Below the pieces are notes generated by a model, which was not told the DNA's origin, searched no databases, and saw nothing but the letters and a program-made list of their open reading frames with translations. From a virus (lineage: Duplodnaviria; Heunggongvirae; Uroviricota; Caudoviricetes), in IMG/VR virus record IMGVR_UViG_2740892229_000013: 38,746 nt of DNA; one strand, 5' to 3'. Positions within the stretch are counted from its first letter, which is position 1. Every line of letters begins with the position of its first letter. Both the position numbers and the translations under genes were made by a program. Shown here piece after piece: positions 4,273 through 38,746 of the stretch.

Positions 4273-4297
4273 ATAAAAAAAGCGCCATCATTGGCGC
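4273..4297 (-). terminator. terminator for leftward transcription
   Basis: Palindrome GCGCCATCATTGGCGC (4282-4297); on minus strand hairpin is followed by TTTTTTT. Confidence 0.55.
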
Positions 4298-4327
4298 GTT
4301 ATGGTGGAAGTATTGGAAACGAAAAAA

Positions 4328-4344
4328 GCGCCCATAGTGGGCGC
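4328..4344. terminator. 17-bp palindrome GCGCCCATAGTGGGCGC, hairpin/terminator-like, copy 1
   Basis: Perfect 7-3-7 inverted repeat flanked by A-run and T-rich tract; identical copy at 4824-4840. Confidence 0.5.
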
Positions 4345-4350
4345 TCGATT

Positions 4351-4581
4351 TTATTTATGTAGACTGATTTCAAATCCCATTTCTACAAACGCTTTTAACA
4401 TTAAAAATATATCAGCGTCGTTCACGTCTGCTTTTTTTCGCTCCTGGTCGCTCAATAAGTCAATTTTGCGCGTCGTTTCATCTATAAGCTCGACTGCGCG
4501 CCCAGCGTAACCAGCGATCCCAGCGATGCGATTAACATAATATTCGTTATGGACGTTAACGCCAGCGATAAGAACAAACAT
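4351..4581 (-). CDS. hypothetical small protein (76 aa) in AT-rich island
   Basis: ORF with AAGGAGC RBS 6 nt upstream of ATG on minus strand. Confidence 0.45.
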   Translation of the reverse strand: MFVLIAGVNVHNEYYVNRIAGIAGYAGRAVELIDETTRKIDLLSDQERKKADVNDADIFLMLKAFVEMGFEISLHK

Positions 4582-4601
4582 GATTAAGCTCCTTAAAAAA
4601 A

Positions 4602-4805
4602 TTAAATAGAATTTTGAAGTTTTCCGATTAATGCGCTTAAACGTAAGTATTCACGTTTGCGCTTGCAATCTCGCTTGCTGTTAAGCAAATCAGAAAACGT
4701 AAAATTTAATTGGTCGCGTTGCGCGATTAAATCATCGATTAATTCCAGTTTATAAGCGCGATACTTTGCGCGATATTCCGCGCGGATCTTGTCATAGCTG
4801 ACCAT
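4602..4805 (-). CDS. hypothetical small protein (about 67 aa)
   Basis: ORF track 4602..4850; AAAGGAGC RBS favours internal ATG at 4805; upstream part of tracked ORF is the palindrome. Confidence 0.4.
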   Translation of the reverse strand: MVSYDKIRAEYRAKYRAYKLELIDDLIAQRDQLNFTFSDLLNSKRDCKRKREYLRLSALIGKLQNSI

Positions 4806-4823
4806 TTTCAAAGCTCCTTTAAA

Positions 4824-4840
4824 GCGCCCATAGTGGGCGC
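4824..4840. promoter_or_regulatory. 17-bp palindrome GCGCCCATAGTGGGCGC, copy 2
   Basis: Identical to 4328-4344; lies between co-directional minus-strand genes. Confidence 0.5.
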
Positions 4841-4853
4841 TTGATTCCATTAA

Positions 4854-5504
4854 TTACGCTTTGAAAGCATCAGCTAAATAATTGTAGAAATCATTTTTAA
4901 TGAAGCGATATTGCTGAGTACCAGCTTTCGCACTCCCAGCTCCTTTGACTTTTTCAACAAGTCCAAGACGTTCGCAAAGATTGATCAACTGGTTGGCTTG
5001 AGTATAGCCAGCGTCCAATTTAATTTCACACGCTTTTTTAGCTTCATTCATTAAATCGAAAACAGCGCCATTGGTGAACGTGTCGATCTCGTCGTTAATC
5101 ATATCGATTAAAGCGAATACACGAGATCCTGACATATCAGCGATGGAATAAACGCATTTACCAGATTTAATTGATTTAACCAGATAAACCAGTTTTTCCA
5201 GAGAATAACTATTAGTCATTGCATCACGGAAAAATACTTCTGGCGCTTGTTTGCTTGCTTTAATCGCATAGTAGAAAACAGAGCATAATTTTTCGTCTTC
5301 TACTGCGTTTACGACGTTGTTGATGAAGTAAGCAAGTTTAGTGGTCGCAGCTTGCATATTTGCTTTGTCTGCTTTAGTGTGCGTACCATTTTTATAATGT
5401 TCGTTATATGTTTGAGTTGCCAGATCTGCTTTATCGCGCAGCTCGTCGGATACAATAGATGCAGCTTCAATGATGGACTTTTTAGAAATGATAATGTTAG
5501 CCAT
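4854..5504 (-). CDS. hypothetical protein (216 aa), AT-rich island
   Basis: ORF with AAGGAAA RBS; no recognisable catalytic motif by eye. Confidence 0.5.
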   Translation of the reverse strand: MANIIISKKSIIEAASIVSDELRDKADLATQTYNEHYKNGTHTKADKANMQAATTKLAYFINNVVNAVEDEKLCSVFYYAIKASKQAPEVFFRDAMTNSYSLEKLVYLVKSIKSGKCVYSIADMSGSRVFALIDMINDEIDTFTNGAVFDLMNEAKKACEIKLDAGYTQANQLINLCERLGLVEKVKGAGSAKAGTQQYRFIKNDFYNYLADAFKA

Positions 5505-5744
5505 GATAATTTTTCCTTATGTAAATTTAAAATTTATTGTCGTTAGCGTCTTCGCTTTCGACGAGTTCAATTATCGATACGCGAAAAAAGATTGCAAGTG
5601 TTTTTTTTAAATTTTTTGCAGGGATGAAAGTCCTAGAAATAAAAGCGAGATCGTCGAAGGTGTTCCCTAAATAAATAATCGATTCCGGCTTTCGACCTTA
5701 TATATATTTAGGTTATTTGATTTGTAGATATAAAGAAGTGATGT

Positions 5745-5775
5745 GAAAAATAATAACCGGACTTAGCCGGTTATT
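5745..5775 (-). terminator. terminator of minus-strand helicase operon
   Basis: AATAACCGG (5752-5760) / CCGGTTATT (5767-5775) stem; T-run follows on minus strand. Confidence 0.6.
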
Positions 5776-5787
5776 AACCTTATAGAT

Positions 5788-6096
5788 TTATTGAACAGAC
5801 TCTACAGCCTTACGATTGGTGTCAAATAGCGCATCAACGAACTGTGCCGATGACTCGCTAGATTCGCAATCCAACATTGCCCGTTCTTCATTTGCCACTT
5901 TCTTACACAGTTCCACATTCTCACCTATCGCTTTTCCTGCTTTTACGGCTGCCGAAAATTGATACATGCAAACTGATACATTCTGAGACGTTGAGCACAC
6001 GTCATTCATCAGCGACTGAATGACAGGCTTATAGTCCATTGCATTTGCCGCAACTGAGCAAAGTAAAAATAATGGTGGTAACAATATCGATTTCAT
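5788..6096 (-). CDS. small secreted/periplasmic protein (102 aa) with N-terminal signal peptide
   Basis: N-terminus MKSILLPPLFLLCSVAANA looks like a Sec signal peptide; 4 Cys in mature part; start 3 nt after upstream stop. Confidence 0.55.
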   Translation of the reverse strand: MKSILLPPLFLLCSVAANAMDYKPVIQSLMNDVCSTSQNVSVCMYQFSAAVKAGKAIGENVELCKKVANEERAMLDCESSESSAQFVDALFDTNRKAVESVQ

Positions 6097-6099
6097 AAC

Positions 6100-6624
6100 T
6101 CAAAAAGGCAAAATTCGTTCAACCCAATCGAACAAAACAACTATTTTTCTACCGTTCTCGACACGTAGTGTAACCTGACAAGCATCTGCGCCTGCTGACA
6201 CCCCCTCAATTTCACGGCCATCCGCCATGTACACCCTTATAGATTTGTTTGCTTTGTAGGCTTGGTTGCAAATTGCAAAAAAATCGCGGCGTGATGGCCG
6301 ATTATCGACATAATCAGGGTGAACTGTTAGTCGACCTTTGAAATCGTGAGCGATACTGTCAACCACACCTGATTCAATTGTACTAATGCGTTCAAGTGGG
6401 AGCCTTATACGATTTTCTTTGTCAAAAGGGGCTGGGCAAAGGTCAACTTTGTTACGAGATGGCATGAGGCCATAAACGTACATGCAAAACGCCTGGCCAT
6501 CTTCGAGAGTGACCCTTACAGGAATTTGTTCTCTGCGCCAGAACATCAGTAGTTTTTCAACGTTAGTGTAATCTCGCGGCCAGAGTTCAGCTTGGATACC
6601 GTAGGTAATATCTTTGGTTGTCAT
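6100..6624 (-). CDS. hypothetical protein (about 174 aa)
   Basis: ORF track 6100..6702; ATG 6624 begins 4 nt after lipoprotein stop (coupled), so upstream extension rejected. Confidence 0.5.
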   Translation of the reverse strand: MTTKDITYGIQAELWPRDYTNVEKLLMFWRREQIPVRVTLEDGQAFCMYVYGLMPSRNKVDLCPAPFDKENRIRLPLERISTIESGVVDSIAHDFKGRLTVHPDYVDNRPSRRDFFAICNQAYKANKSIRVYMADGREIEGVSAGADACQVTLRVENGRKIVVLFDWVERILPF

Positions 6625-6628
6625 GTCA

Positions 6629-7093
6629 TCACAGAGTTGTTGGCAGAATGTCGATGTCACCAGAATTGCTGGTGAACACCCTGAACGCTTTTGTGTCTCC
6701 ATTCTTCAGAGTCGTTTCTCGCTCTTGACGAGCGGGGTTTAGAGCACATAAACCTGCACCTTCAAGAGATGCACCCACAATTAATTCTCCGGCATTTAAA
6801 TGGAAAGTCGCTTTTTCGCCTGTAGCCAGTTTTGCGACAGTTTCGCCATTGATGAAAATGGAAGCATCACATCCAGCTCCTACAAAACCTGTGTCTCTCA
6901 TTACCACCAACGTAGCTGGCGCTGCGCTTTGATACTTGAACACTTTGGCCTGCGGTGCTGGTTTGGCGTCATGGATTGATATTGGACGTGATTGGCACGC
7001 GGTAAGCATCAACACTGGTAACGTTAGTAGAGGGAGAAGCGAGTATTTCATGTTAGTTTTAGAACAGAAAGTGAACAGTATGGGAGACTTCAT
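6629..7093 (-). CDS. putative lipoprotein (lipobox LTAC)
   Basis: Hydrophobic N-terminus LLPLLTLPVLMLTAC-Q with lipobox; AGGGAGA RBS before ATG 7093; alternative start 7051. Confidence 0.6.
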   Translation of the reverse strand: MKSPILFTFCSKTNMKYSLLPLLTLPVLMLTACQSRPISIHDAKPAPQAKVFKYQSAAPATLVVMRDTGFVGAGCDASIFINGETVAKLATGEKATFHLNAGELIVGASLEGAGLCALNPARQERETTLKNGDTKAFRVFTSNSGDIDILPTTL

Positions 7094-7119
7094 CTTTGTC
7101 TCCCTAATTGATAGCGTGA

Positions 7120-7398
7120 TTATTTTAATCTGCTTAATAGCGTTTCGAGATCTTCCTTTGTCATATTAGAGTTCTCATAGATACGCATGATTTTCTCACG
7201 AGTCTTAGCGGAAGCCCCGACAGAAGATATAACCTTGTCAAAGTCGGCCATTGTCAATTGTTCCAGAATGGTATTAATGACTTCAGCCTTAGACATTTTG
7301 ATATTTTTTTCTTTTAGTTTCACTTGAAACTTTCCAAGTTTGTCATTGGCCTTATCAGACAATGCTACCTGACAGTAAGTTGTTTTCTTTTCACTCAT
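7120..7398 (-). CDS. hypothetical small protein (92 aa), possible DNA-binding
   Basis: ORF begins 2 nt after helicase stop. Confidence 0.45.
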   Translation of the reverse strand: MSEKKTTYCQVALSDKANDKLGKFQVKLKEKNIKMSKAEVINTILEQLTMADFDKVISSVGASAKTREKIMRIYENSNMTKEDLETLLSRLK

Positions 7399-7400
7399 AA

Positions 7401-8960
7401 CTAATCTCGTTTCAGAACTCCAAAATCGAATGCTCCATCAATAGGCAATACACCTTCTGCAAAGCCAGGTGTGGTGTCGATGATGTGTTTTCGCTCATAA
7501 GAGTGAGACAACAGGTATTTGTTGCTAATGTCAATGAAATCAGTGATAAAACACACGTTTGCCTGATTTTTTTTGGCTCGTAAGCCACGACCGACACGCT
7601 GTCTCATTTCAACTTCTGCTTTCCCACCACCAGCAAGAATGACCGCACCAACGCTTGGCACATCAACACCAACATCCAGAATAGTCGAGCCTATTAAAAC
7701 ATCTATTTCACCAGACGCTAAACTGTTCAGCTTTGCTTGCCTTGTCGTCTGGTTAGATTCCCCATAGATGAAATCAACTCTAAGACCTGACTCCTTCATC
7801 ATCTCCATCAGGATTTGCCCGTGGCGTTTAAGACGAACCAGAGTCATGCAGTTGAGTGAATGTTGCTTATAAAGCAATGCCTCGCGCACTATGGCCTCGT
7901 TACGTCCCAAATTATACACGATCCCCAACTGATAAGCCTTTTGGTAGGCGGTGCTCATACCAACTCTAAAATTGAGATGTTTGTTGGCAAGTTCGGCCTT
8001 GATTCTGGCCTCGTCTGGCTTGTAGGCAACTTTATGATAAAGGAAGTACGGCTTTGCCAGAATGCCTCGATCAATCAGGTACTTTTCTGTGACTTTAATT
8101 TCAATTCGCCCGGCCACCGCCATCAGGCGCATGTTGGCTTCCGTCGAATCCTTCATGAACGGCGTGGCTGTAAGCGCCAGACGATAGTCTGCGTTCACAC
8201 ATAATCTGGCGATGTCATAGAAATTTGAGCCTGAAGACTCATGCGCCTCTTCCAGAATAAGAAGAGAGACACTTGAAAGGAAGCGTTTCACCAACTCCCG
8301 ACGTTTGAGGTGGTAGCTTTTCTTATCTGGTGTTGCATCGCGTGGTGGTTCTTCGAGGAAACTTGCAAGAGTTTGAACTGTAGCGACGTTGATATGTCGT
8401 GATACCTGGAACTCACCCGAGCCAATGACTCCAACCTTTTGGTCTTTTAACCACGGTTCGCCATTTTTGGCGCGGTAGTCGATGGATCTCTGGAAGTTTT
8501 CGGCCATTTGAAACATCAGAACAGAGCGGGTTGTTAAAAATAATGTCATTCGACCGATACGTGCAGCTGCTTTGCAGGCAACATTAGATTTCCCGCCACC
8601 AGTAGCGATCTGCGCAATCATCATTCCCTCTCGAACCAGTGTTTCCACAGTCTGATCCTGATACGCATAATCAGGATTGTATGGGAATGGGTTAACCGCC
8701 GGATTTGGTTTTCCAAGCGCCGGGGCTTTGTCTTTGCGGATATGAACACATTTGATGCCCGCCTTGTTCAAGTTCGCCGCTACAGGCTTGGCAAAGCCTG
8801 CAGGGAACGAGTTTTTACTCCAGTTGAACATTGTGCTTGTGCCCTTCCAGTCGCCAGTCTCGACTTCGTAGCTCAACATCTGTTGCACCAGTTGCTTTAC
8901 CTTGTCATCTGCGCCAGAAATAAGCGCATTAACTGCGTTAGATACAATCCGAACAGTCAT
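7401..8960 (-). CDS. SF2 DNA/RNA helicase (DEAH-type)
   Basis: Walker A ATGGGKSN, DEAH-like LILEEAH, motif III LTATP, motif VI QRVGRGLR; strong RBS AAGGAAAGAGG. Confidence 0.85.
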   Translation of the reverse strand: MTVRIVSNAVNALISGADDKVKQLVQQMLSYEVETGDWKGTSTMFNWSKNSFPAGFAKPVAANLNKAGIKCVHIRKDKAPALGKPNPAVNPFPYNPDYAYQDQTVETLVREGMMIAQIATGGGKSNVACKAAARIGRMTLFLTTRSVLMFQMAENFQRSIDYRAKNGEPWLKDQKVGVIGSGEFQVSRHINVATVQTLASFLEEPPRDATPDKKSYHLKRRELVKRFLSSVSLLILEEAHESSGSNFYDIARLCVNADYRLALTATPFMKDSTEANMRLMAVAGRIEIKVTEKYLIDRGILAKPYFLYHKVAYKPDEARIKAELANKHLNFRVGMSTAYQKAYQLGIVYNLGRNEAIVREALLYKQHSLNCMTLVRLKRHGQILMEMMKESGLRVDFIYGESNQTTRQAKLNSLASGEIDVLIGSTILDVGVDVPSVGAVILAGGGKAEVEMRQRVGRGLRAKKNQANVCFITDFIDISNKYLLSHSYERKHIIDTTPGFAEGVLPIDGAFDFGVLKRD

Positions 8961-9042
8961 AAACCTCTTTCCTTAGTGCCTTTTGTATGTTATTTGGCTA
9001 TTATAATAAGTAAGTGATTACTTAGTGGATTGTAGCAATAAA
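8961..9042. promoter_or_regulatory. divergent promoter/operator region
   Basis: Between divergent helicase and ParB operons; contains TATAAT (9002-9007) and palindrome AAGTAAGTGATTACTT (9008-9023). Confidence 0.45.
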
Positions 9043-9726
9043 ATGGATGTAAAAATCACGATTTTGCAGGTTGATGTTGCCAACCTTCGCCCGAATACCT
9101 GGAACACCAATTCGGTTGGTGCGCAGAATTTTGAAAAACTGAAAGGTTCTATCGAAAAATTGGGCTTTTTTAAGCCAATTTTGGCTCGTGAACTTGAAGA
9201 TGGATTTTTTGAAATCCTCGGCGGCGAACATCGCTGGCGTGCCGCTATTGAGCAAGGAATTTCAACGGTTCCAGTGCTTTCTGTGGGCAAAATTAGCGAT
9301 GTCGTAGCTAAACAGATGTCACTGGTGGACAACGAGCGATACGGTGAAGACGACCAAATCGCATTGCAACGCTTCATTGAAGAAATTCAGTCAGAACTTG
9401 ACTATCAACTGTCTGAAATCGCCCCGTATGACGACGAAATCTCGATGGTTTTAGCAAAAGAGGCGGCAATCGACCTTGAAGCACTGGAGGCGTTGTCTCG
9501 TGGTAGTGATGAGCCTGTCGATACCGACAAACGAGAGAAAACCGAACGTGTGGGGGCGGAACATCAGACCATGCGCTTCAAAGTAACTTTCGATGCGTCA
9601 GATCGTGTTGCAGAAACCATAAAAAACATCATCAAAGAGCAGGCTATTAACACCGGTAATGAAATGGAGAACGCTGGTGAGGCTCTGGTGTGGCTGGTCG
9701 ACTACTACTACAAGGAGCGTATGTAA
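9043..9726 (+). CDS. ParB/Srx-like nuclease-domain protein 1 (possible RHH C-terminus)
   Basis: N-terminal ParB-type motif FEILGGEHRWRAAIEQG; ORF track starts GTG 9025, ATG 9043 preferred. Confidence 0.75.
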   Translation: MDVKITILQVDVANLRPNTWNTNSVGAQNFEKLKGSIEKLGFFKPILARELEDGFFEILGGEHRWRAAIEQGISTVPVLSVGKISDVVAKQMSLVDNERYGEDDQIALQRFIEEIQSELDYQLSEIAPYDDEISMVLAKEAAIDLEALEALSRGSDEPVDTDKREKTERVGAEHQTMRFKVTFDASDRVAETIKNIIKEQAINTGNEMENAGEALVWLVDYYYKERM

Positions 9727-10394
9727 TGACCAAAAAGTTTGAAATCGTATATCGCGACCCGGCAGATCTTATTCCCTATGAGATGAATGCCAAAAAGCAT
9801 GATGAACAGCAGATCCGAGATCTAGCCGCAGCCATTAAAAAGCGCGGATTTGACCAGCCAATTACGGTCGATAAGAACGACGTAATTATTACTGGCCACG
9901 GCCGCCGTGAGGCTGCAATTTTTGCTGGACTTGAGCGCGTACCGGTTATTGTTCGCGATGATCTCAGTGATGACGAGGTTCGTGCGAAGCGCCTTGAAGA
10001 TAACCGACTTGCCAGCATTGATTACGATGCAATTAAGCTACAGAAAGAGCTTGAGTCGCTTGTTCTGGACGATATCGAGGTTTTCGGCTTTGAAGAGCGT
10101 GAGTTGAATGTTCTCGTTGGCAGCATGACAGAAGAAATGGACACCGACTCGCTAGTTATCGATCTTGGCGAAGAAACTAAACGACAGAAGGATGAACACA
10201 CCGAGATCAGTCGTGAAGTTGCAGCGGAAGAAGTACGTGTTGTCGACGTATTGGGCTTTAAAACGCTTCCTGCTGGCTCTGCCATTGTTGTTGGTGATTT
10301 GCTTGCCCACATGGAAGAAATGACGGGAGAAAGCGGGGTAGACGCATTTGTGGCATATGCGGAGAAGATCTCTTCCGGGGAGATGGCTGTATGA
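9726..10394 (+). CDS. ParB/Srx-like nuclease-domain protein 2
   Basis: Motif ITGHGRREAAIFAG; ATG overlaps upstream stop (TAATG); ORF track start 9690 rejected. Confidence 0.75.
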   Translation: MTKKFEIVYRDPADLIPYEMNAKKHDEQQIRDLAAAIKKRGFDQPITVDKNDVIITGHGRREAAIFAGLERVPVIVRDDLSDDEVRAKRLEDNRLASIDYDAIKLQKELESLVLDDIEVFGFEERELNVLVGSMTEEMDTDSLVIDLGEETKRQKDEHTEISREVAAEEVRVVDVLGFKTLPAGSAIVVGDLLAHMEEMTGESGVDAFVAYAEKISSGEMAV

Positions 10395-11056
10395 GCAAAT
10401 ACATCATCAACGTATCGTTTCAGACACGCGTAAATAAAACCACGCGCACGTTGGAAATCGCTGAGTCGTTCGGGCTTGGCCTGGACGAAAAAGAGTGGAC
10501 GCTTTACGACAATCTGGAGCTGGAAGTGAAGCAGGGCGATGTGGTGTACATCACCGGCCAATCCGGTTCCGGCAAATCCGTTGTGCTGCGCGAGTTGCAA
10601 CGACAGATGAAGGATGAAGGGCTGTCTGTAGCCTCCATCGATGATTTTACCTTCGATAATGAGGTTAACGTCATCGATCAGTTGGGCAAAACGACCAGCG
10701 ATGCGCTTGGGTTGTTATCTATGGCTGGTCTGAACGATGCATATCTGTTTGTTCGCAAGCCTTCTGAAATGTCAGACGGTCAGAAATATCGTCTCAAGAT
10801 TGCCAAACTGATTGAGTCAGGCGCTAAAGTGTGGGCTGCTGACGAGTTCGGTGCTGTTCTAGACCGTGTAACCGCTCAGGTTGTGGCATCTAACCTCCAG
10901 CGTGCCGCTCGAAAGGTTGGTGCGACGGTAATGGTGGCGACGACTCACGAAGACCTGAAGAACGCGCTGCGCCCGGATATGCAGATCACCAAGCACTACA
11001 AAGAACGCGTGAAGGTGGAATATCACAATGGTAGTCATGATGAGGTTCATTTATGA
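10391..11056 (+). CDS. soluble ABC-type ATPase
   Basis: Walker A GQSGSGKS, ABC signature MSDGQ, Walker B VWAADE, H-loop ATTHED; no TM segments; ATGA overlap with upstream gene. Confidence 0.8.
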   Translation: MSKYIINVSFQTRVNKTTRTLEIAESFGLGLDEKEWTLYDNLELEVKQGDVVYITGQSGSGKSVVLRELQRQMKDEGLSVASIDDFTFDNEVNVIDQLGKTTSDALGLLSMAGLNDAYLFVRKPSEMSDGQKYRLKIAKLIESGAKVWAADEFGAVLDRVTAQVVASNLQRAARKVGATVMVATTHEDLKNALRPDMQITKHYKERVKVEYHNGSHDEVHL

Positions 11057-11943
11057 CGGACATCATCATTAAACGCTACCGCCCTGAAGAGTTTCCGCGT
11101 CATCTGGACTTTCTGGAGCGAATGACTGTCACAAAGGGAACTGTAGAGGACTGGCACGCTCTTAAGTCGCTTCACTACAAAACAGACGGCAAACCTTTCG
11201 CGCCAACTTACTATCGCTGCGAACTTGATGACCGTCTGGTGGGCGTCGTGGTTATGGCTTACCCGAAACTACTGCTGGCACCTCGCCACCGCATGTTTCC
11301 TAAGTTGAAACCAACCACTAATACCACCGTGGCTAACCAGTACTGGGGTCGGTACGTGAATAACAACTTTGCGGTGATCAGTCGCTCAGTTGTGGATACT
11401 CAGTATCGTGGCGTAGGCGTCTCTTATCGAATGATTAACCTGGTTAGCAGGATGCATGACCGGCCAATCATTGAGATCCAGTCCTCGATGAGCAAATACA
11501 ATCCCTTCGCCATGAAAGCAGGGTTTAAGTTCATCCGCCCTGAGCGACCGAAGAGCTATGAAAGTGCACTGCGTGTATTCCAGCGCCATTTCCGTTCCGA
11601 CCCGGGTGATAACGAGGCGATCGTCAAAGAATTGTTCGCAATGAGCGAGTCTCGTCGTCGCCGTGCACTGCGTGATCTGGTGGCGGACTACCACAAGAAC
11701 AGTTCCCTGGCAAAAGCTGGGCGGAATCGTGGCACGACGATTCAGGACATTGCCGACAGTCTGGTGGACGAGGCCAGCATTGTGAAGCTGCTCAAGGACA
11801 TTCACAACCTGAGCTTTACGTCTCCGTTGTATGGTGTGTACCGAAACCCTGACTTTGGCCGTCGACTGCCTGACACGCTGCCACTGCTGGCATTCGACAA
11901 ACAACCTTTGGATAAACCGTTAGAAATTGCTTTACCGGCATAA
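11053..11943 (+). CDS. GNAT-fold acyltransferase-like protein with C-terminal extension
   Basis: QYRGVGVSYRM (acyl-CoA binding-type motif) and NPFAMKAGFKF; ATGA overlap with ABC ATPase gene. Confidence 0.5.
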   Translation: MTDIIIKRYRPEEFPRHLDFLERMTVTKGTVEDWHALKSLHYKTDGKPFAPTYYRCELDDRLVGVVVMAYPKLLLAPRHRMFPKLKPTTNTTVANQYWGRYVNNNFAVISRSVVDTQYRGVGVSYRMINLVSRMHDRPIIEIQSSMSKYNPFAMKAGFKFIRPERPKSYESALRVFQRHFRSDPGDNEAIVKELFAMSESRRRRALRDLVADYHKNSSLAKAGRNRGTTIQDIADSLVDEASIVKLLKDIHNLSFTSPLYGVYRNPDFGRRLPDTLPLLAFDKQPLDKPLEIALPA

Positions 11944-34660: not shown

Positions 34661-35623
34661 ATGTGGTACAGGGAAGGTACTATCACATTTACACAGGGCA
34701 GCAATACTCTGGTTGGGGCAGGGACAGCCTGGAACGTAACAGCTAATGGTGTGTTGCCGGGGATGATCGTCATTGGCCCCGACAATAAGCTGTATGAGAT
34801 CAAGCGCGTAACCAGTGATACGAACATTGTTCTCTCAGAACCTTATACCGGCGAAACTCAGTCTGAAGTTCCGTGCCGAATCATTACGACCTATGAAGGC
34901 GACTTAACACAGTTTAGCGCGCGCTTTACAGCACTAATGTCGCGTATGTCGGCTGATTCCAAGTCCATGCGCAGTTGGTTGACTGCTCTGGATGAGGTGA
35001 CAATCGAGCGTGAAGACGGTACAGAAGTGACCGTTAAGCCGCTAATGCAGATCGTCAACGAGCACAACGAAAACGTTGAGTGGTATAAAAATAACACTGA
35101 CGCGATTGATGCTGCTGGCGACAAAGCTCGTGAGGCGGCGGCCAGTGCTGCCGCAGCAGCAGAAAGCGCCAATATCGCTGGAGAAAAAGCCTCTCAAGCG
35201 TCTCAAAGTGCATCCGCTGCAGAGTCCTCAAAAAGCGCGGCGGCCACCAGTGCCGGTGCCGCGAAAACGTCTGAAACGAATGCTGCAGCGTCACAAAAAT
35301 CTGCAGCCACTTCTGCATCCACCGCGACCACGAAAGCGTCAGAAGCTGCCACCTCAGCCCGGGATGCGGCGGCCTCAAAAGAGGCAGCGAAATCATCAGA
35401 AACGAGCGCAGCCTCGAGCGCCAGTAATGCCGCTTCCTCGGCAACGGCGGCAGGAAATTCCGCGAAGGCGGCAAAAACGTCCGAGACGAACGCCAGGTCT
35501 TCTGAAACGGCAGCGGGACAGAGCGCCTCGGCTGCGGCAGGCTCAAAAACAGCGGCTGCGTCGTCTGCCAGTGCAGCGTCAACAAGTGCCGGGCAGGCCT
35601 CAGCCAGTGCCACCGCCGCCGGA
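34661..35623 (+). CDS. tail fibre protein with Stf-like Ala/Ser-rich central repeats, 3-prime end lost at N gap
   Basis: AAGGAG RBS; unique N-terminal about 150 aa then Ala/Ser/Thr-rich repeats nearly identical at DNA level to 36548-36815 and 36826-37170; runs into gap at 35624. Confidence 0.65.
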
Positions 35624-35633
35624 NNNNNNNNNN
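35624..35633. other. run of 10 N (assembly/scaffold gap 1)
   Basis: Literal n characters; reading frame and gene identity change across it. Confidence 0.95.
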
Positions 35634-35708
35634 GTCGCTTATGAAGGCTCCGGCAGTGGTGACTGGCGCACTGACGGGTTCATCGTGGGTGTTGGTTATA
35701 AATTCTGA
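35634..35708 (+). pseudogene. lom: 3-prime remnant of lom-like outer-membrane protein gene (last 24 codons)
   Basis: Encodes VAYEGSGSGDWRTDGFIVGVGYKF-stop, matching the lambda Lom C-terminus as I recall it; no upstream part present. Confidence 0.7.
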
Positions 35709-35734
35709 TTAGCCAGGTAACACAGTGTTATGAC

Positions 35735-35761
35735 AGCCCGCCGGTTCAGGCGGGCTTTTTT
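35735..35761 (+). terminator. rho-independent terminator
   Basis: AGCCCGCC (35735-35742) / GGCGGGCT (35749-35756) then TTTTT. Confidence 0.75.
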
Positions 35762-35772
35762 GTGGGGTGAAT

Positions 35773-38746
35773 ATGGCAGTAAAAATTTCAGGTGTACTGA
35801 AAGACGGCACAGGAAAACCGGTACAGAACTGCACAATCCAGCTGAAAGCAAAACGTAACAGTACCACGGTGGTGGTGAACACGCTGGCATCTGAAAATCC
35901 GGATGAAGCCGGGCGTTACAGTATGGACGTTGAGTACGGTCAGTACAGCGTTATTCTGTTGGTGGAAGGATTCCCGCCGTCACATGCCGGGACCATCACA
36001 GTGTATGAAGATTCCCGACCCGGTACGCTGAATGATTTTCTCGGTGCCATGACGGAGGATGATGCCCGTCCGGAGGCACTGCGCCGTTTTGAACTGATGG
36101 TGGAAGAGGTGGCGCGTAACGCGTCCGCGGTGGCACAGAACACGGCAGCCGCGAAGAAGTCAGCCAGCGATGCCGGCACATCAGCCCGTGAGGCGGCAAC
36201 CCATGCGACTGATGCTGCAGGCTCAGCACGTGCAGCCAGCACATCAGCCGGGCAGGCCGCGACGTCGGCTCAGTCAGCGTCTTCCAGCGCAGGAACGGCA
36301 TCAACAAAGGCTACTGAAGCATCAAAAAGTGCTGCCGCTGCAGAGTCCTCAAAAAGCGCGGCGGCCACCAGTNNNNNNNNNNCGCAGCCAGCACGTCAGC
36401 CGGACAGGCCGCGTCGTCGGCTCAGTCAGCGACTTCCAGCGCAGGAACGGCATCAACAAAGGCCACTGAAGCATCAAAAAGTGCTGCCGCTGCAGAGTCC
36501 TCAAAAAGCGCGGCAGCTACCAGTGCCAGTGCCGCGAAAACGTCAGAAACGAATGCGGCAGCGTCACAACAATCAGCAGCCACTTCTGCATCCACCGCGA
36601 CTACGAAAGCGTCAGAAGCTGCCACCTCAGCCCGGGATGCGGCGGCTTCAAAAGAGGCGGCAAAATCATCAGAAACGAACGCATCCTCGAGCGCCAGTAG
36701 CGCAGCTTCCTCGGCAACAGCGGCAGGAAATTCCGCGAAGGCGGCAAAAACGTCAGAGACGAACGCCAGGTCTTCTGAAACGGCAGCGGGACAGAGCGCC
36801 TCGGCTGCGGCAGGCNNNNNNNNNNGGCAGCGTCACAAAAATCTGCAGCCACTTCTGCATCCACCGCGACCACAAAGGCGTCAGAAGCTGCCATCTCAGC
36901 CCGGGATGCGGCGGCCTCAAAAGAGGCAGCGAAATCATCAGAAACGAACGCATCATCAAGTGCCAGTAGTGCAGCTTCCTCGGCAACGGCGGCAGCAAAT
37001 TCTGCGAAGGCGGCAAAAACGTCCGAGACGAACGCCAAGGCTTCTGAAACGGCAGCGGGACAGAGCGCCTCAGCTGCGGCAGGCTCAAAAACAGCGGCTG
37101 CATTATCTGCCAGTGCCGCGTCAACAAGTGCCGGGCAGGCCTCAGCCAGTGCCACCGCCGCCGGAAAATCGGCAGAAAGTGCTGCATCGTCTGCTTCAAC
37201 AGCCACAACGAATGCTGGCGAAGCCGCTGTACAGGCCAGCGCAGCAGCGAGGTCAGCTTCCGCAGCGAAGACATCCGAGACGAACGCGAAAGCGTCGGAA
37301 ACCAGCGCAGAATCCTCAAAAACGGCAGCGGCATCGTCCGCCAGTTCGGCGGCGTCATCGGCATCATCGGCGTCTGCTTCAAAAGATGAGGCGACCAGAC
37401 AGGCGTCAGCAGCGAAGAGCAGCGCCACGACGGCATCCACGAAAGCAACAGAGGCGGCAGGCAGTGCGACGGCGGCAGCACAGAGCAAAAGTACGGCGGA
37501 ATCCGCGGCAACGCGCGCCGAGACAGCGGCAAAACGGGCAGAGGATATTGCATCCGTCGTGGCGCTTGAGGATGCGAGCACGACGAAAAAGGGGGTAGTA
37601 CAGCTCAGCAGTGCGACCAACAGTACGTCTGAAACGCTGGCGGCAACGCCAAAGGCAGTAAAATCAGCCTATGACAATGCAGAGAAACGTCTGCAGAAAG
37701 ACCAGAACGGCGCTGATATACCCGACAAGGACCGCTTCCTGAGTAACATTAATGTTTACAGCAAAGGTGAAGTGGATCAGAAAAAGGGGATGCGATACGT
37801 TGTGGTAAATGCCCCGGCGGGTGTCCAGGAAGGTAAATATTATCCGTTAGTGATAAAAAGGAATGACAGCCATCGGGCATCCCGCGTTGTCATTTCAACG
37901 CCAAGTCGCTCAGCTAATCACAGAATGAATAATTGTGAGTTTAATGGTTTTGTTTGCGCAGGCGGCTGGACGGACCGGGGTAGCTATGCCTGTGGTATGT
38001 TCTGGGCTTATTCAACATCGGAACGCGCTATTCATTCCATTCTGATGAGTAATAAAGGCGATACCGTAGACAGCGTATTCTATATAGAAGGTGGGGCATT
38101 TCCCGTAGAGGTCTTTTTAGAAGAAGGTCTCTCCGTTACTGCACCTGCTTCTGATTATATTGTTGCTGAAACGACTTATAAATTTGGCGCAACTGATCCT
38201 TATTCTGAATCAGTTGCGGTAAATTTAATTTTAGATTTTAAACAAGGTAATGGATTTTATAGTTCATATCCTGTTTTGAGTAAGTCAGACATTAGCGGGA
38301 ATAAGATTTACGCTAATGATGAAGTTATTGTCCGTAGTCAGAACGCGTTAAGGATGATTGCAGGTGATTACGGTGTCATATGGCGAAATGATGGAGCAAA
38401 TACTTACTTGCTCATGACTGATAAAGGCGACCAGTACGGTGGCTGGAACGGTCTTCGACCATTTGCAGTAAATAACGCAACAGGTGAAGTGACGATCAAT
38501 ACACCACTTAATTCTCCTAAGGGGATTAAGGGAAATTCTGATACAGCTACGAAACTTCAGACAGCAATAAAAATATCTGGTGTTTCGTTTGATGGTTCTA
38601 CTGATATCACTTTAACCGCTGCGCATGTTGCTGCTTTTGCCAGAAGAGCAACGGATACGTATGCCGATGCGGATGGGGGCGTTCCATGGAATGCCGAATC
38701 AGGCGCTTACAATGTCACCCGCTCTGGCGACAGCTATATTCTGGTT
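35773..38746 (+). CDS. stf: lambda Stf-like side tail fibre, interrupted by two N gaps, 3-prime partial
   Basis: N-terminus MAVKISGVLKDGTGKPVQNCTIQLKAKRNSTTVVVN matches lambda Stf as recalled; frame 1 to 36372, frame 0 for 36384-36815, frame 2 from 36827 to window end with no stop. Confidence 0.8.
36373..36382. other. run of 10 N (assembly/scaffold gap 2)
   Basis: Literal n characters; flanks are about 93 percent identical redundant copies. Confidence 0.95.
36816..36825. other. run of 10 N (assembly/scaffold gap 3)
   Basis: Literal n characters; sequence after gap restarts about 270 bp upstream in the repeat unit. Confidence 0.95.

What the first reader, a model, noticed from the sequence alone, without database searches (positions are those of the whole stretch)
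5788..7398. Lipoprotein and signal-peptide protein co-transcribed with the replicative helicase
Downstream of the helicase, and coupled by 2-4 nt stop-start spacings, lie a small possible DNA-binding protein, a lipoprotein (lipobox LTAC), a 174-aa unknown and a secreted Cys-containing protein, ending at a terminator (5745-5775). Envelope-targeted proteins in an early operon are typical of superinfection-exclusion or receptor-masking functions. No holin or endolysin is adjacent, and the lipoprotein lacks a C-terminal membrane segment, so a spanin role is unlikely.
Basis: partly seen in the sequence, partly recalled or inferred. Interest (0 to 1): 0.5.

Follow-up and report, generated by a model that had tools for sequence, protein, structure and literature searches.

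The report
Exported proteins flanking a phage-plasmid FljA gene

Summary
Three details need correcting. The helicase is an SF2 DEAD/ResIII enzyme, not a replicative type. One of the four gene junctions is 26 nt, not 2-4 nt. The "174-aa unknown" is a full-length FljA-family protein (Pfam PF03614, E 1.5e-84; 34% identical to Salmonella FljA), predicted to be two Hfq/Sm-like domains.

The window is an SSU5-type phage-plasmid, 98.9% identical to Escherichia phage CMS-2020a. In 11 related elements, helicase, p92, the FljA-like gene and p216 are fixed. The positions on either side of the FljA-like gene hold changing cargo, nearly always exported proteins.

The lipoprotein belongs to a large family of ~140-aa lipoproteins, most of whose examined members are phage- or prophage-borne. 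In six lambda-like phage and prophage lineages it sits between tail genes K and I, beside J. In a Vibrio phage it follows the cI repressor.

Published RNA-seq of the relative Cyrano shows this locus transcribed in the plasmid state. Superinfection exclusion or receptor masking is therefore plausible (about 0.4) but rests on association only. A spanin role is very unlikely. The FljA-like target is probably not only fliC.

The finding is modestly interesting: a new member of a known kind.

The parts
7401..8960 (-). SF2 helicase (519 aa), first gene of the unit; not a replicative (DnaB-type) helicase
   Evidence: Pfam ResIII 1.1e-14, DEAD 1.9e-14, Helicase_C 6e-13; PHROG 16 'DNA helicase' 4.9e-93. 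It is 91-99% identical across 11 SSU5-type loci. The Cyrano homologue CYRAN_118 is transcribed in lysogens.
7120..7398 (-). p92, a conserved 92-aa protein of unknown function, 2 nt downstream of the helicase stop
   Evidence: PHROG 1466 (unknown function) 5.3e-46. There are no significant Pfam, NCBIfam or PDB hits. It is present in all 11 related loci. The Cyrano homologue CYRAN_117 is expressed 12-fold above background in lysogens.
7094..7119 (-). 26-nt spacer with a GGGAGA Shine-Dalgarno sequence; lacks the hairpin found here in SSU5, Kluyvera and pMT1
   Evidence: Sequence and gap. Alignment with relatives. SSU5 has a terminator-like site at L001 5054-5029.
6629..7093 (-). Lipoprotein precursor (154 aa from 7093, or 140 aa from the conserved start at 7051). 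Lipobox LTAC, Cys codon at 6995-6997, Gln at +2 (outer-membrane sorting by the +2 rule), mature part 121 aa and all-beta
   Evidence: Lipobox and hydrophobic core. PHROG 890 'lipoprotein' 1.2e-51. The family has 932 cluster representatives at E <= 1e-3. The lipobox Cys is invariant. The AF2 model is all-beta but low confidence.
6100..6624 (-). FljA-family protein (174 aa), predicted tandem Sm/Hfq-like RNA-binding repressor; the conserved core gene of the locus
5788..6096 (-). Periplasmic protein precursor (102 aa). Sec signal peptide is residues 1-19 (6096-6040); the mature 83 aa has four invariant Cys
   Evidence: N-terminal features. PHROG 9536 (unknown function) 5.8e-55 on residues 20-102. 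Alignment with homologues. It occurs in 259 PLSDB plasmids.
5745..5776 (-). Intrinsic terminator: 10-bp stem, 6-nt loop, T run
   Evidence: Terminator scan. RNA fold -12.6 kcal/mol, z -3.0.

Best explanation
Shown:
- The region is the distal part of a transcription unit of an SSU5-type phage-plasmid. Its order is SF2 helicase, p92, [variable slot], FljA-family protein, [variable slot], terminator.
- Helicase, p92 and the FljA-like gene are fixed in every relative examined.
- The two exported proteins are accessory cargo sitting in the two variable slots.

Inferred:
- The lipoprotein is exported by Sec, lipidated at Cys33 and sorted to the outer membrane (Gln at +2).
- There, in cells carrying the plasmid, it interferes with adsorption or DNA entry of incoming phages that use the same surface route. 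It may also stop released progeny being wasted on debris. This is how T5 Llp, phi80/N15 Cor and the mEpimmI Lpp lipoproteins work.
- The 83-aa two-disulfide periplasmic protein is a second, independently exchangeable envelope factor of unknown partner.
- The FljA-like protein is a tandem Sm-fold RNA-binding translational repressor. Its target is probably not, or not only, host fliC mRNA.
For: Architecture and conservation:
- Local tblastn across 11 SSU5-type loci.
- PLSDB counts: FljA-like 835 plasmids, lipoprotein 421, sec102 259.

Export signals:
-.

Slot cargo is nearly always exported:
- A divergent homologue of the same lipoprotein family lies on the opposite strand in Klebsiella (hhalign 99.8%, E 1.6e-27).
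- Cyrano has an unrelated 266-aa lipoprotein in the slot.
- L007 and L021 have Sec-signal proteins of 196 and 118 aa.
- L011 has a distant 100-aa homologue of sec102 with the same four Cys.

Genomic association of the lipoprotein family:
- It sits between K and I, beside J, in mEp390, Fostie, P. aeruginosa vB_Pae_CF53a, Pseudomonas phiAH14a, Pseudomonas prophages and a Klebsiella N15-like linear plasmid.
- It follows the tape measure gene in HK639.
- It follows the cI-like repressor in Vibrio phage P2.

Precedent:
- Lipoproteins encoded in tail clusters of mEpimmI phages were shown experimentally to exclude phages in a receptor-matched way (PMC11893012).

Expression:
- In E. coli LF82 carrying Cyrano, CYRAN_118, 117, 115 and 114 reach log2 FPKM 7-9.9 in growing or intramacrophage bacteria.
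- The neighbouring ParB-like and ABC genes are at 2.3-4.6 (PMC9928086 S1 Table).

FljA identity and fold:
-.
Against: - No experiment tests exclusion for this family. None was found in the searched literature.
- In this window the gene lies 23 kb from J, not beside it.
- Cyrano has the same J/fibre type (96% identity) but a different slot lipoprotein, so no coupling to receptor specificity is visible.
- Expression data come from a relative whose slot lipoprotein is not homologous. Part of the signal could come from spontaneously induced cells.
- A host-benefit role, such as serum resistance, fits the same facts.
Confidence: 0.42

Rival explanations
1. Lysogenic conversion for the benefit of the host rather than phage exclusion. 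The lipoprotein and the periplasmic protein alter envelope properties such as serum or complement resistance, adhesion or stress tolerance, as lambda Bor, Lom and TraT-type proteins do. This helps the plasmid-bearing cell in the gut or in macrophages.
For: - The locus is transcribed in the plasmid state. In Cyrano the slot lipoprotein and the FljA-like gene rise about 8-20-fold from overnight LB to growth in medium or macrophages.
- The cassette is common in clinical and animal E. coli: 84 of 5426 complete genomes, always on a plasmid.
- The element carries other conversion-type genes, including a Lom remnant next to the tail fibres.
Against: - Family members are placed next to tail-tip genes in many phages of unrelated hosts (Pseudomonas, Vibrio, Klebsiella, E. 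coli). This fits a phage-directed role better than a niche-specific virulence role.
- There is no similarity to Bor, Iss or TraT in the Pfam or PDB searches.
Confidence: 0.2
2. The three genes form one functional module modelled on fljB-fljA. The FljA-like RNA-binding protein silences translation of a host surface-protein mRNA (flagellin or another receptor). The co-expressed exported proteins replace or mask that surface structure. Exclusion, for example of flagellotropic phages, would then come mainly from the repressor.
For: - Canonical FljA is co-transcribed downstream of a surface protein gene and blocks fliC mRNA translation (PMC2652032).
- In phage-plasmids the FljA-like gene is always flanked by genes for exported proteins.
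- The stop-start gaps either side of it are 4 and 3 nt.
- Its predicted fold is Hfq-like.
Against: - The gene is conserved under purifying selection in elements from Klebsiella (345 plasmids) and Yersinia pestis (62), hosts that are known to make no flagella.
- E. coli LF82 transcribes the Cyrano allele yet makes long FliC filaments and is motile.
- The window has no fliC-leader-like sequence above chance.
- There is no flagellin gene in the locus.
Confidence: 0.15
3. The FljA-like protein regulates the phage-plasmid's own mRNAs (for example lytic or maintenance genes). The flanking exported proteins are unrelated hitch-hiking morons that merely use a permissive insertion site.
For: - FljA-like is a core gene of the SSU5 group whatever the host. 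Among phages it is found only in this group (14 of 14 records).
- The flanking cargo is swapped freely and can even be inverted.
- Cargo type is uncoupled from J type.
Against: - The cargo is biased towards exported proteins, which a neutral insertion site would not predict.
- No target has been identified.
Confidence: 0.18
4. The lipoprotein is the outer-membrane spanin of a lysis system encoded elsewhere.
For: It is a phage-encoded outer-membrane lipoprotein with conserved periplasmic Cys residues.
Against: - There is no holin, endolysin or i-spanin in the flanks.
- The mature domain is 121 aa and beta-rich, not short and proline-rich.
- Homologues sit in tail modules or after cI, never in lysis cassettes, in the nine contexts examined.
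- The Cyrano slot lipoprotein, a different and non-homologous protein, is transcribed in lysogens.
- The gene is absent from many functional SSU5-type phages such as Cyrano.
Confidence: 0.03

Closest known systems
Salmonella FljA (phase-1 flagellin repressor, Pfam PF03614)
   Same: Full-length homology (34% identity, E 2e-37), the same length, and shared motifs YG..AE.WPRDY, PSRRDFF.IC and DWV.RI. It is also the last or near-last gene of a small operon downstream of a gene for a surface protein.
   Different: No flagellin gene or invertase is nearby. It is a core gene of SSU5-type phage-plasmids, including those in non-flagellate hosts. A lysogen that transcribes a 78%-identical allele is still flagellate. 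Its target is unknown.
Phage T5 Llp, phi80/N15/HK022 Cor, and mEpimmI Lpp exclusion lipoproteins
   Same: Small phage-encoded outer-membrane lipoproteins. Homologues of the window protein occupy the same kind of position, next to tail-tip or receptor-binding genes. They are expressed from the resident phage.
   Different: No sequence or detectable fold homology. The mature domain is larger (121 aa). In this window the gene lies next to fljA-like, not next to J. No exclusion phenotype has been shown.
Lambda-type morons (Bor, Lom) and HK97 gp15
   Same: Accessory envelope proteins inserted in otherwise conserved phage operons. They are variable between relatives and expressed in lysogens.
   Different: No homology. 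The window shows no promoter signal of its own above chance level.
Hfq / Sm-like proteins
   Different: It has two Sm-like units in one chain, with no sequence similarity between the halves and none to Hfq beyond a weak Pfam hit (E 7e-4). Whether it forms a ring is unknown.
Pfam DUF2846 lipoproteins
   Same: Weak profile similarity over about 50 residues, and the same general type (small beta-rich lipoprotein).
   Different: The score is below the gathering threshold (17.8 against 34.3 bits). Only 9 of 47 family members hit DUF2846 at all.

Membership tests
FljA / Flag1_repress (PF03614) | Full-length match to the family profile above the curated threshold | tested here: met
   282.4 bits against a cutoff of 24; residues 5-171 match profile positions 1-170 of 170.
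FljA / Flag1_repress (PF03614) | Significant similarity to an experimentally characterised FljA | tested here: met
   34% identity, E 2e-37, to FljA of a hin-fljB-fljA locus (L008). 35% identity to the linear-plasmid FljA encoded next to a flagellin gene.
FljA / Flag1_repress (PF03614) | Encoded downstream of a phase-2 flagellin gene (fljBA operon) | tested here: not met
   No flagellin gene was found in the window locus or in any of the 11 related phage-plasmid loci.
FljA / Flag1_repress (PF03614) | Binds the fliC mRNA leader and blocks its translation | not testable with these tools
   Only indirect evidence is available. The predicted fold is Hfq-like. Against this role, the gene is conserved in Klebsiella and Y. 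pestis plasmids, and LF82, which transcribes the Cyrano allele, is flagellate.
Bacterial lipoprotein (Lgt/Lsp substrate) | Signal peptide ending in a lipobox [LVI][ASTVI][GAS]C | tested here: met
   LTAC at residues 30-33. The hydrophobic core has a maximum Kyte-Doolittle score of 2.27, and Lys residues lie in the n-region.
Bacterial lipoprotein (Lgt/Lsp substrate) | Lipobox Cys conserved in homologues | tested here: met
   The Cys is invariant in 47 sequences at 29-60% identity and in 13 close homologues.
Bacterial lipoprotein (Lgt/Lsp substrate) | Actual lipidation and outer-membrane location | not testable with these tools
   Gln at +2 (not Asp) predicts Lol-dependent outer-membrane sorting under the E. 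coli +2 rule. This is an inference only.
Llp/Cor-type superinfection-exclusion lipoproteins | Homology to Llp or Cor | tested here: not met
   The profile search of the PDB matches only the signal peptide of T5 Llp (8a60_B, E 0.1). There are no Pfam or PADLOC-type names.
Llp/Cor-type superinfection-exclusion lipoproteins | Gene adjacent to the receptor-binding or tail-tip gene | tested here: inconclusive
   Not met in this window: the gene is at 6.6-7.1 kb and J is at 29.9-34.6 kb. Met for homologues in six other phage or prophage lineages.
Llp/Cor-type superinfection-exclusion lipoproteins | Exclusion of phages that use the cognate receptor | not testable with these tools
   No experiment was found for this family. 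The mEpimmI Lpp precedent is analogous, not homologous.
o-spanin (Rz1-like) | Gene embedded in, overlapping or adjacent to an i-spanin gene within a lysis cassette | tested here: not met
   The neighbours are p92 and the FljA-like gene. No lysis families were found in the flanks.
o-spanin (Rz1-like) | Short, proline-rich mature peptide | tested here: not met
   The mature part is 121 aa and is predicted to have nine beta strands.
DUF2846 (PF11008) | Score above the gathering threshold | tested here: not met
   17.8-18.1 bits against a threshold of 34.3.
Sec-exported periplasmic protein (102-aa ORF) | n-h-c signal peptide with an AxA cleavage site, kept in homologues while the sequence drifts | tested here: met
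   ANA|M in the window and VSA|M in homologues. The mature part is 66-67% identical and all four Cys are invariant.
Replicative helicase (DnaB family) | DnaB/RecA-type hexameric helicase domains | tested here: not met
   Only SF2 families match: ResIII, DEAD, Helicase_C and XPB/UvsW-like.
SSU5-type phage-plasmid | Nucleotide identity and synteny with SSU5, pHCM2 and pMT1 relatives | tested here: met
   98.9% identity to CMS-2020a and 79% to SSU5. Gene order is conserved in 11 loci. All 218 E. coli matches are on plasmids.

The most novel reading that the evidence does not exclude
The FljA-like gene and its two flanking cargo slots may form a surface-remodelling module specific to SSU5-type phage-plasmids. 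In this reading a tandem-Sm RNA-binding protein, recruited from the flagellar phase-variation system, post-transcriptionally silences a host or phage mRNA other than fliC. Interchangeable lipoproteins and periplasmic proteins loaded next to it would mask or replace envelope structures. This would be a new class of lysogeny-expressed, RNA-level exclusion or conversion system.
Probability: 0.15. Interest if true: 0.65.

Novelty: new member of a known kind. Interest (0 to 1): 0.38.

Why it matters
SSU5-type phage-plasmids are widespread in clinical Enterobacterales. Matches to this locus occur in 215 of 5426 complete E. coli genomes, 84 of them with the near-complete cassette. The group also includes pHCM2 of S. 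Typhi and pMT1 of Y. pestis.

If the lipoprotein family is an exclusion factor, it would add a large, uncharacterised family (over 900 sequence clusters) to the few known phage receptor-masking lipoproteins. That matters for choosing phages for therapy against strains that carry these plasmids.

If the FljA-like protein has a target other than fliC, it would show a flagellar phase-variation regulator reused as a phage post-transcriptional regulator. It would also give the FljA family a structural explanation, namely tandem Sm domains.

As it stands, the locus is a well-populated, already annotated set of genes without functional data.

Tried and rejected
- **PDB sequence searches.** Searches for the FljA-like family, the lipoprotein family and p92 found no meaningful relatives. 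The only matches were to signal peptides, including T5 Llp.
- **DUF2846 membership.** The match is below threshold and seen in only 9 of 47 members.
- **fliC-leader-like target in the window.** The only hit was a 15-nt identity inside p92 (7283-7269). Shuffled queries reach the same score and the match is not conserved in SSU5.
- **Internal repeat in the FljA-like sequence.** The two halves show no similarity above shuffles. The duplication is visible only in the predicted structure.
- **Genome-contig scan for FljA relatives.** It returned only five loci, all phage-plasmid-like.
- **Literature on FljA in phage-plasmids, and on an FljA Sm fold.** Nothing was found. Yamamoto and Kutsukake 2006 (PMC1347349) is not held.
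- **Pfam on the alternative slot cargo.** No families matched, apart from one weak BiPBP_C hit.
- **Spanin role.** Considered and rejected; see the rival explanations.
- **Promoter in front of the lipoprotein gene.** A site at 7148-7119 matches 9 of 12 hexamer positions, but such sites are no more frequent than in shuffles, so no claim is made.
Full report
**What the window is**

The region 5500-9000 is 98.9% identical over its full length to Escherichia phage CMS-2020a (107.6 kb). It is 79% identical to Salmonella phage SSU5. The cassette matches 215 of 5426 complete E. coli genomes, and 84 of those cover at least 80% of it. Every match is on a plasmid of about 100-120 kb and none is chromosomal. 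All four small proteins exist with exactly these sequences in public databases, each on roughly 840 to over 1000 contigs of E. coli and Shigella sonnei. The window is therefore part of a common SSU5-type phage-plasmid.

**Checking the observation**

The minus strand carries five genes:

| Gene | Coordinates | Length |
|---|---|---|
| Helicase | 7401-8960 | 519 aa |
| p92 | 7120-7398 | 92 aa |
| Lipoprotein precursor | 6629-7093 | 154 aa |
| 174-aa ORF | 6100-6624 | 174 aa |
| 102-aa ORF | 5788-6096 | 102 aa |

- The terminator is real. It has a 10-bp stem at 5776-5751 followed by a T run, at -12.6 kcal/mol and z = -3.0 against shuffles.
- The lipoprotein has a hydrophobic core and the lipobox LTAC, with Cys33 and Gln at +2. 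It has no other membrane segment.
- The upstream ATG at 7093 has a good GGGAGA Shine-Dalgarno sequence. Most homologues start at the equivalent of M15 (7051). Either start gives the same mature protein.
- The 102-aa protein has a typical Sec signal, MKSILLPPLFLLCSVAANA|MDYKP. In homologues the signal sequence drifts but stays hydrophobic with an AxA site. The mature 83 residues are 66-67% identical and all four Cys are invariant.
- No lysis family was found in the flanking ORFs.

- The helicase is an SF2 enzyme (ResIII, DEAD, Helicase_C; called UvsW in Cyrano). It is not a DnaB-type replicative helicase.
- Nothing supports DNA binding by p92. By eye its strand-helix-helix pattern would fit a ribbon-helix-helix protein, but that is inference only.
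- The '174-aa unknown' is a known family, described next.

**The central gene is an FljA homologue**

- The 174-aa protein matches Pfam PF03614 ('repressor of phase-1 flagellin') end to end, at E 1.5e-84 and 282 bits against a cutoff of 24.
- I recovered a genuine hin-fljB-fljA locus from a Salmonella plasmid. The window protein is 34% identical to that FljA over its whole length, E 2e-37.
- It is 35% identical to the FljA encoded next to a flagellin gene on a Salmonella linear plasmid.
- FljA-type proteins prevent translation of fliC mRNA (PMC2652032, citing Bonifield and Hughes 2003 and Yamamoto and Kutsukake 2006).
- No solved structure is related by sequence.
- An AlphaFold2 model (pLDDT 74, pTM 0.73) has two consecutive units, each a helix followed by five strands.
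- The two halves share no detectable sequence similarity.
- I found no paper linking FljA to an Sm fold.

**Distribution of the FljA-like gene**

- tblastn finds it in 835 PLSDB plasmids: Klebsiella 345, Escherichia 229, Enterobacter 92, Yersinia 62 (pMT1) and Salmonella 60. Of these, 797 are non-mobilizable, and the listed examples are mostly about 105-115 kb.
- Among phage records it occurs only in SSU5-type phages and two small fragments.
- dN/dS is 0.09-0.13, including between a Klebsiella and a Y. pestis copy.
- Klebsiella pneumoniae and Y. pestis are known not to make flagella, so repression of fliC cannot be the whole function.
- A second argument comes from E. coli LF82. It carries the phage-plasmid Cyrano (FljA-like 78% identical) and transcribes that gene. 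LF82 nevertheless makes long FliC filaments and is motile (PMC10809763).
- A search of the window for a fliC-leader-like sequence gave only a chance-level 15-nt match.

**Anatomy of the locus across relatives**

Local tblastn on 11 SSU5-type loci shows that helicase, p92, FljA-like and the downstream p216 are always present and in the same order. The loci are SSU5, Cyrano, pMT1 (two copies), AnCo3, two Kluyvera, Buttiauxella, two Klebsiella and one contig labelled a Bacillota MAG; a third Klebsiella locus (L021) was added later for the slot-cargo analysis.

The space between p92 and FljA-like, and the space after FljA-like, are variable:
- The window-type lipoprotein is in 7 of the 11 loci.
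- Klebsiella pY9645-105 has a 25%-identical member of the same family on the opposite strand (hhalign 99.8%, E 1.6e-27).
- Cyrano has an unrelated 266-aa lipoprotein (LTGC, Asp at +2) on the opposite strand.
- L007 has a 196-aa Sec-signal protein abutting the FljA-like start.
- L021 has a 118-aa Sec-signal protein.
- Some loci add cytoplasmic proteins of 179-199 aa without Pfam matches.
- The 102-aa protein is found after FljA-like in the window, in Klebsiella L010 and in AnCo3. It is absent from SSU5 and pMT1.
- L011 has a 100-aa protein in that place with a signal peptide and the same four Cys (25% identity).

PLSDB counts agree with this picture: FljA-like 835 plasmids, lipoprotein 421 and sec102 259. 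The exported proteins are thus exchangeable cargo around a fixed fljA-like gene.

**Is the unit co-transcribed with the helicase?**

In SSU5 the only terminator-like site in the region lies exactly between p92 and the lipoprotein gene. It has an 11-bp stem and a T run. Kluyvera has the same hairpin, and pMT1 has one with compensatory changes. The window has lost it. Read-through from the helicase is therefore plausible in this element, but it is not a general property of the group.

In Cyrano, transcript level falls more than 10-fold from p92 to the next gene on the strand. That fits a stop after p92 in that element.

**Timing of expression**

Misson et al. (PMC9928086, S1 Table) give RNA-seq for LF82 carrying Cyrano as a plasmid.

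| Gene | Overnight LB (normalised reads) | Growing or intramacrophage (log2 FPKM) |
|---|---|---|
| Helicase | 46 | 7.2-8.4 |
| p92 | 114 | 8.6-9.9 |
| Slot lipoprotein | 28.6 | 7.9-9.4 |
| FljA-like | 18 | 6.9-8.1 |
| ParB-like and ABC neighbours | about 5-9.5 | 2.3-4.6 |

The Cyrano median in overnight LB is 9.8. The authors list p92 (CYRAN_117) as a moron, at 12-fold above background.

The locus is therefore expressed during plasmid carriage, which is what a conversion or exclusion function needs. It is not simply an early lytic operon. There are caveats. The Cyrano slot lipoprotein is not homologous to the window's. Some signal may come from spontaneously induced cells.

**The lipoprotein family**

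- An exhaustive HMMER search of 1.84 billion cluster representatives found 932 relatives at E <= 1e-3, and 266 at E <= 1e-10. In the best 150 listed, the matches are nearly all about 140 aa and full length.
- In an alignment of 47 of them, the lipobox Cys is invariant and two internal Cys are nearly so.
- Only 9 of the 47 touch DUF2846, and weakly.
- Many named members are from Pseudomonas.

The nine genomic contexts I examined outside the SSU5 group were all in phages, prophages or phage-like plasmids:
- Between the K-like and I-like tail genes, just upstream of J: E. coli phages mEp390 and Fostie, P. aeruginosa vB_Pae_CF53a, Pseudomonas phiAH14a, three Pseudomonas prophage copies, and a Klebsiella N15-like linear plasmid.
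- Directly after the tape measure gene: HK639.
- Directly after the cI-like repressor, on the same strand: Vibrio phage P2.

These are the classic places for exclusion and conversion genes. Unrelated lipoproteins in the tail cluster of mEpimmI coliphages were shown experimentally to exclude phages in a receptor-matched way (PMC11893012).

Three points count against it:
- The window gene is 23 kb from J.
- CMS-2020a and Cyrano share the same J C-terminus and fibre region (96% identity) but carry different slot lipoproteins.
- The structure model is too poor to suggest a partner.

**Conclusion**

The sequence features are real. The locus is best described as the lysogeny-expressed helicase/p92/FljA-like unit of an SSU5-type phage-plasmid, with two cargo slots that here hold an outer-membrane lipoprotein and a periplasmic two-disulfide protein.

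Superinfection exclusion or receptor masking by the lipoprotein is the single most likely function, at about 0.4. Host-benefit conversion, and a joint module with the FljA-like repressor, are serious rivals. A spanin role can be set aside.

The genes are already annotated in SSU5, pMT1 and pHCM2 as 'putative lipoprotein' and 'repressor of phase-1 flagellin'. The finding is therefore a new, uncharacterised member of a known kind rather than something new in kind.

The points I could not find in the literature are:
- the FljA family as a core phage-plasmid gene,
- its tandem Sm-like fold,
- the recurrent position of the lipoprotein family between tail genes K and I.

Noticed in passing
L001 5029-5054 (SSU5); aligned with window 7094-7119: SSU5, Kluyvera and pMT1 have a GC-rich hairpin between p92 and the lipoprotein gene. 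It is terminator-like in SSU5 and carries compensatory changes in pMT1. The window has lost it, so read-through from the helicase may be specific to this lineage.
   Followed up: partly
window 35624-35633, 36373-36382, 36816-36825: Three runs of 10 N lie inside Ala/Ser-rich repetitive tail-fibre genes. The ORFs called there (34661-35644, 35767-36969 and others) are therefore unreliable.
   Followed up: partly
window 35634-35708 (end of ORF 35076-35708): The last 25 residues match the C-terminus of the Ail/Lom outer-membrane protein family (E 2.7e-9), directly after an N run. This looks like a lom-like moron next to the tail fibres, cut by the assembly gap.
   Followed up: partly
window 35185-37600: This high-GC stretch (56-59% GC) is 93-97% identical to the side tail fibre/lom region of many lambdoid and Stx-converting phages. 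That suggests recent exchange of tail-fibre modules between the phage-plasmid and lambdoid prophages.
   Followed up: no
window 7269-7283: There is a 15-nt exact, in-frame identity with fliC codons 3-7 (VINT) inside the p92 gene. Shuffled queries reach the same score and the match is not conserved in SSU5, so it is probably chance.
   Followed up: yes
window 4602-4850 (-): This 82-aa ORF matches PHROG 6145, labelled 'MIT family metal ion transporter' (also the SSU5_119 label). The protein is short, hydrophilic and has no membrane segment, so the label looks wrong.
   Followed up: no
window 9025-11943 (+): Two tandem ParB-like nuclease-domain genes and two ABC-type ATPase genes run divergently from the helicase. 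Their Cyrano homologues are almost silent in lysogens, while the helicase side is expressed.
   Followed up: partly
L002 4344-4943, L021 3267-3806, L007 6573-7112: A homologous cytoplasmic protein of 179-199 aa, with no Pfam match, recurs as extra cargo in the slot between p92 and FljA-like in Cyrano, a Klebsiella plasmid and a metagenomic contig.
   Followed up: no
L007 (JAEWTL010000044.1): A contig labelled 'MAG: Bacillota bacterium' carries an SSU5-type enterobacterial phage-plasmid segment with a 93%-identical helicase. This is probably a binning or contamination error.
   Followed up: no
window 4282-4346: A cluster of strong bidirectional terminator-like hairpins lies downstream of the small genes at 4351-4850. 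It marks the end of the next minus-strand unit.
   Followed up: no
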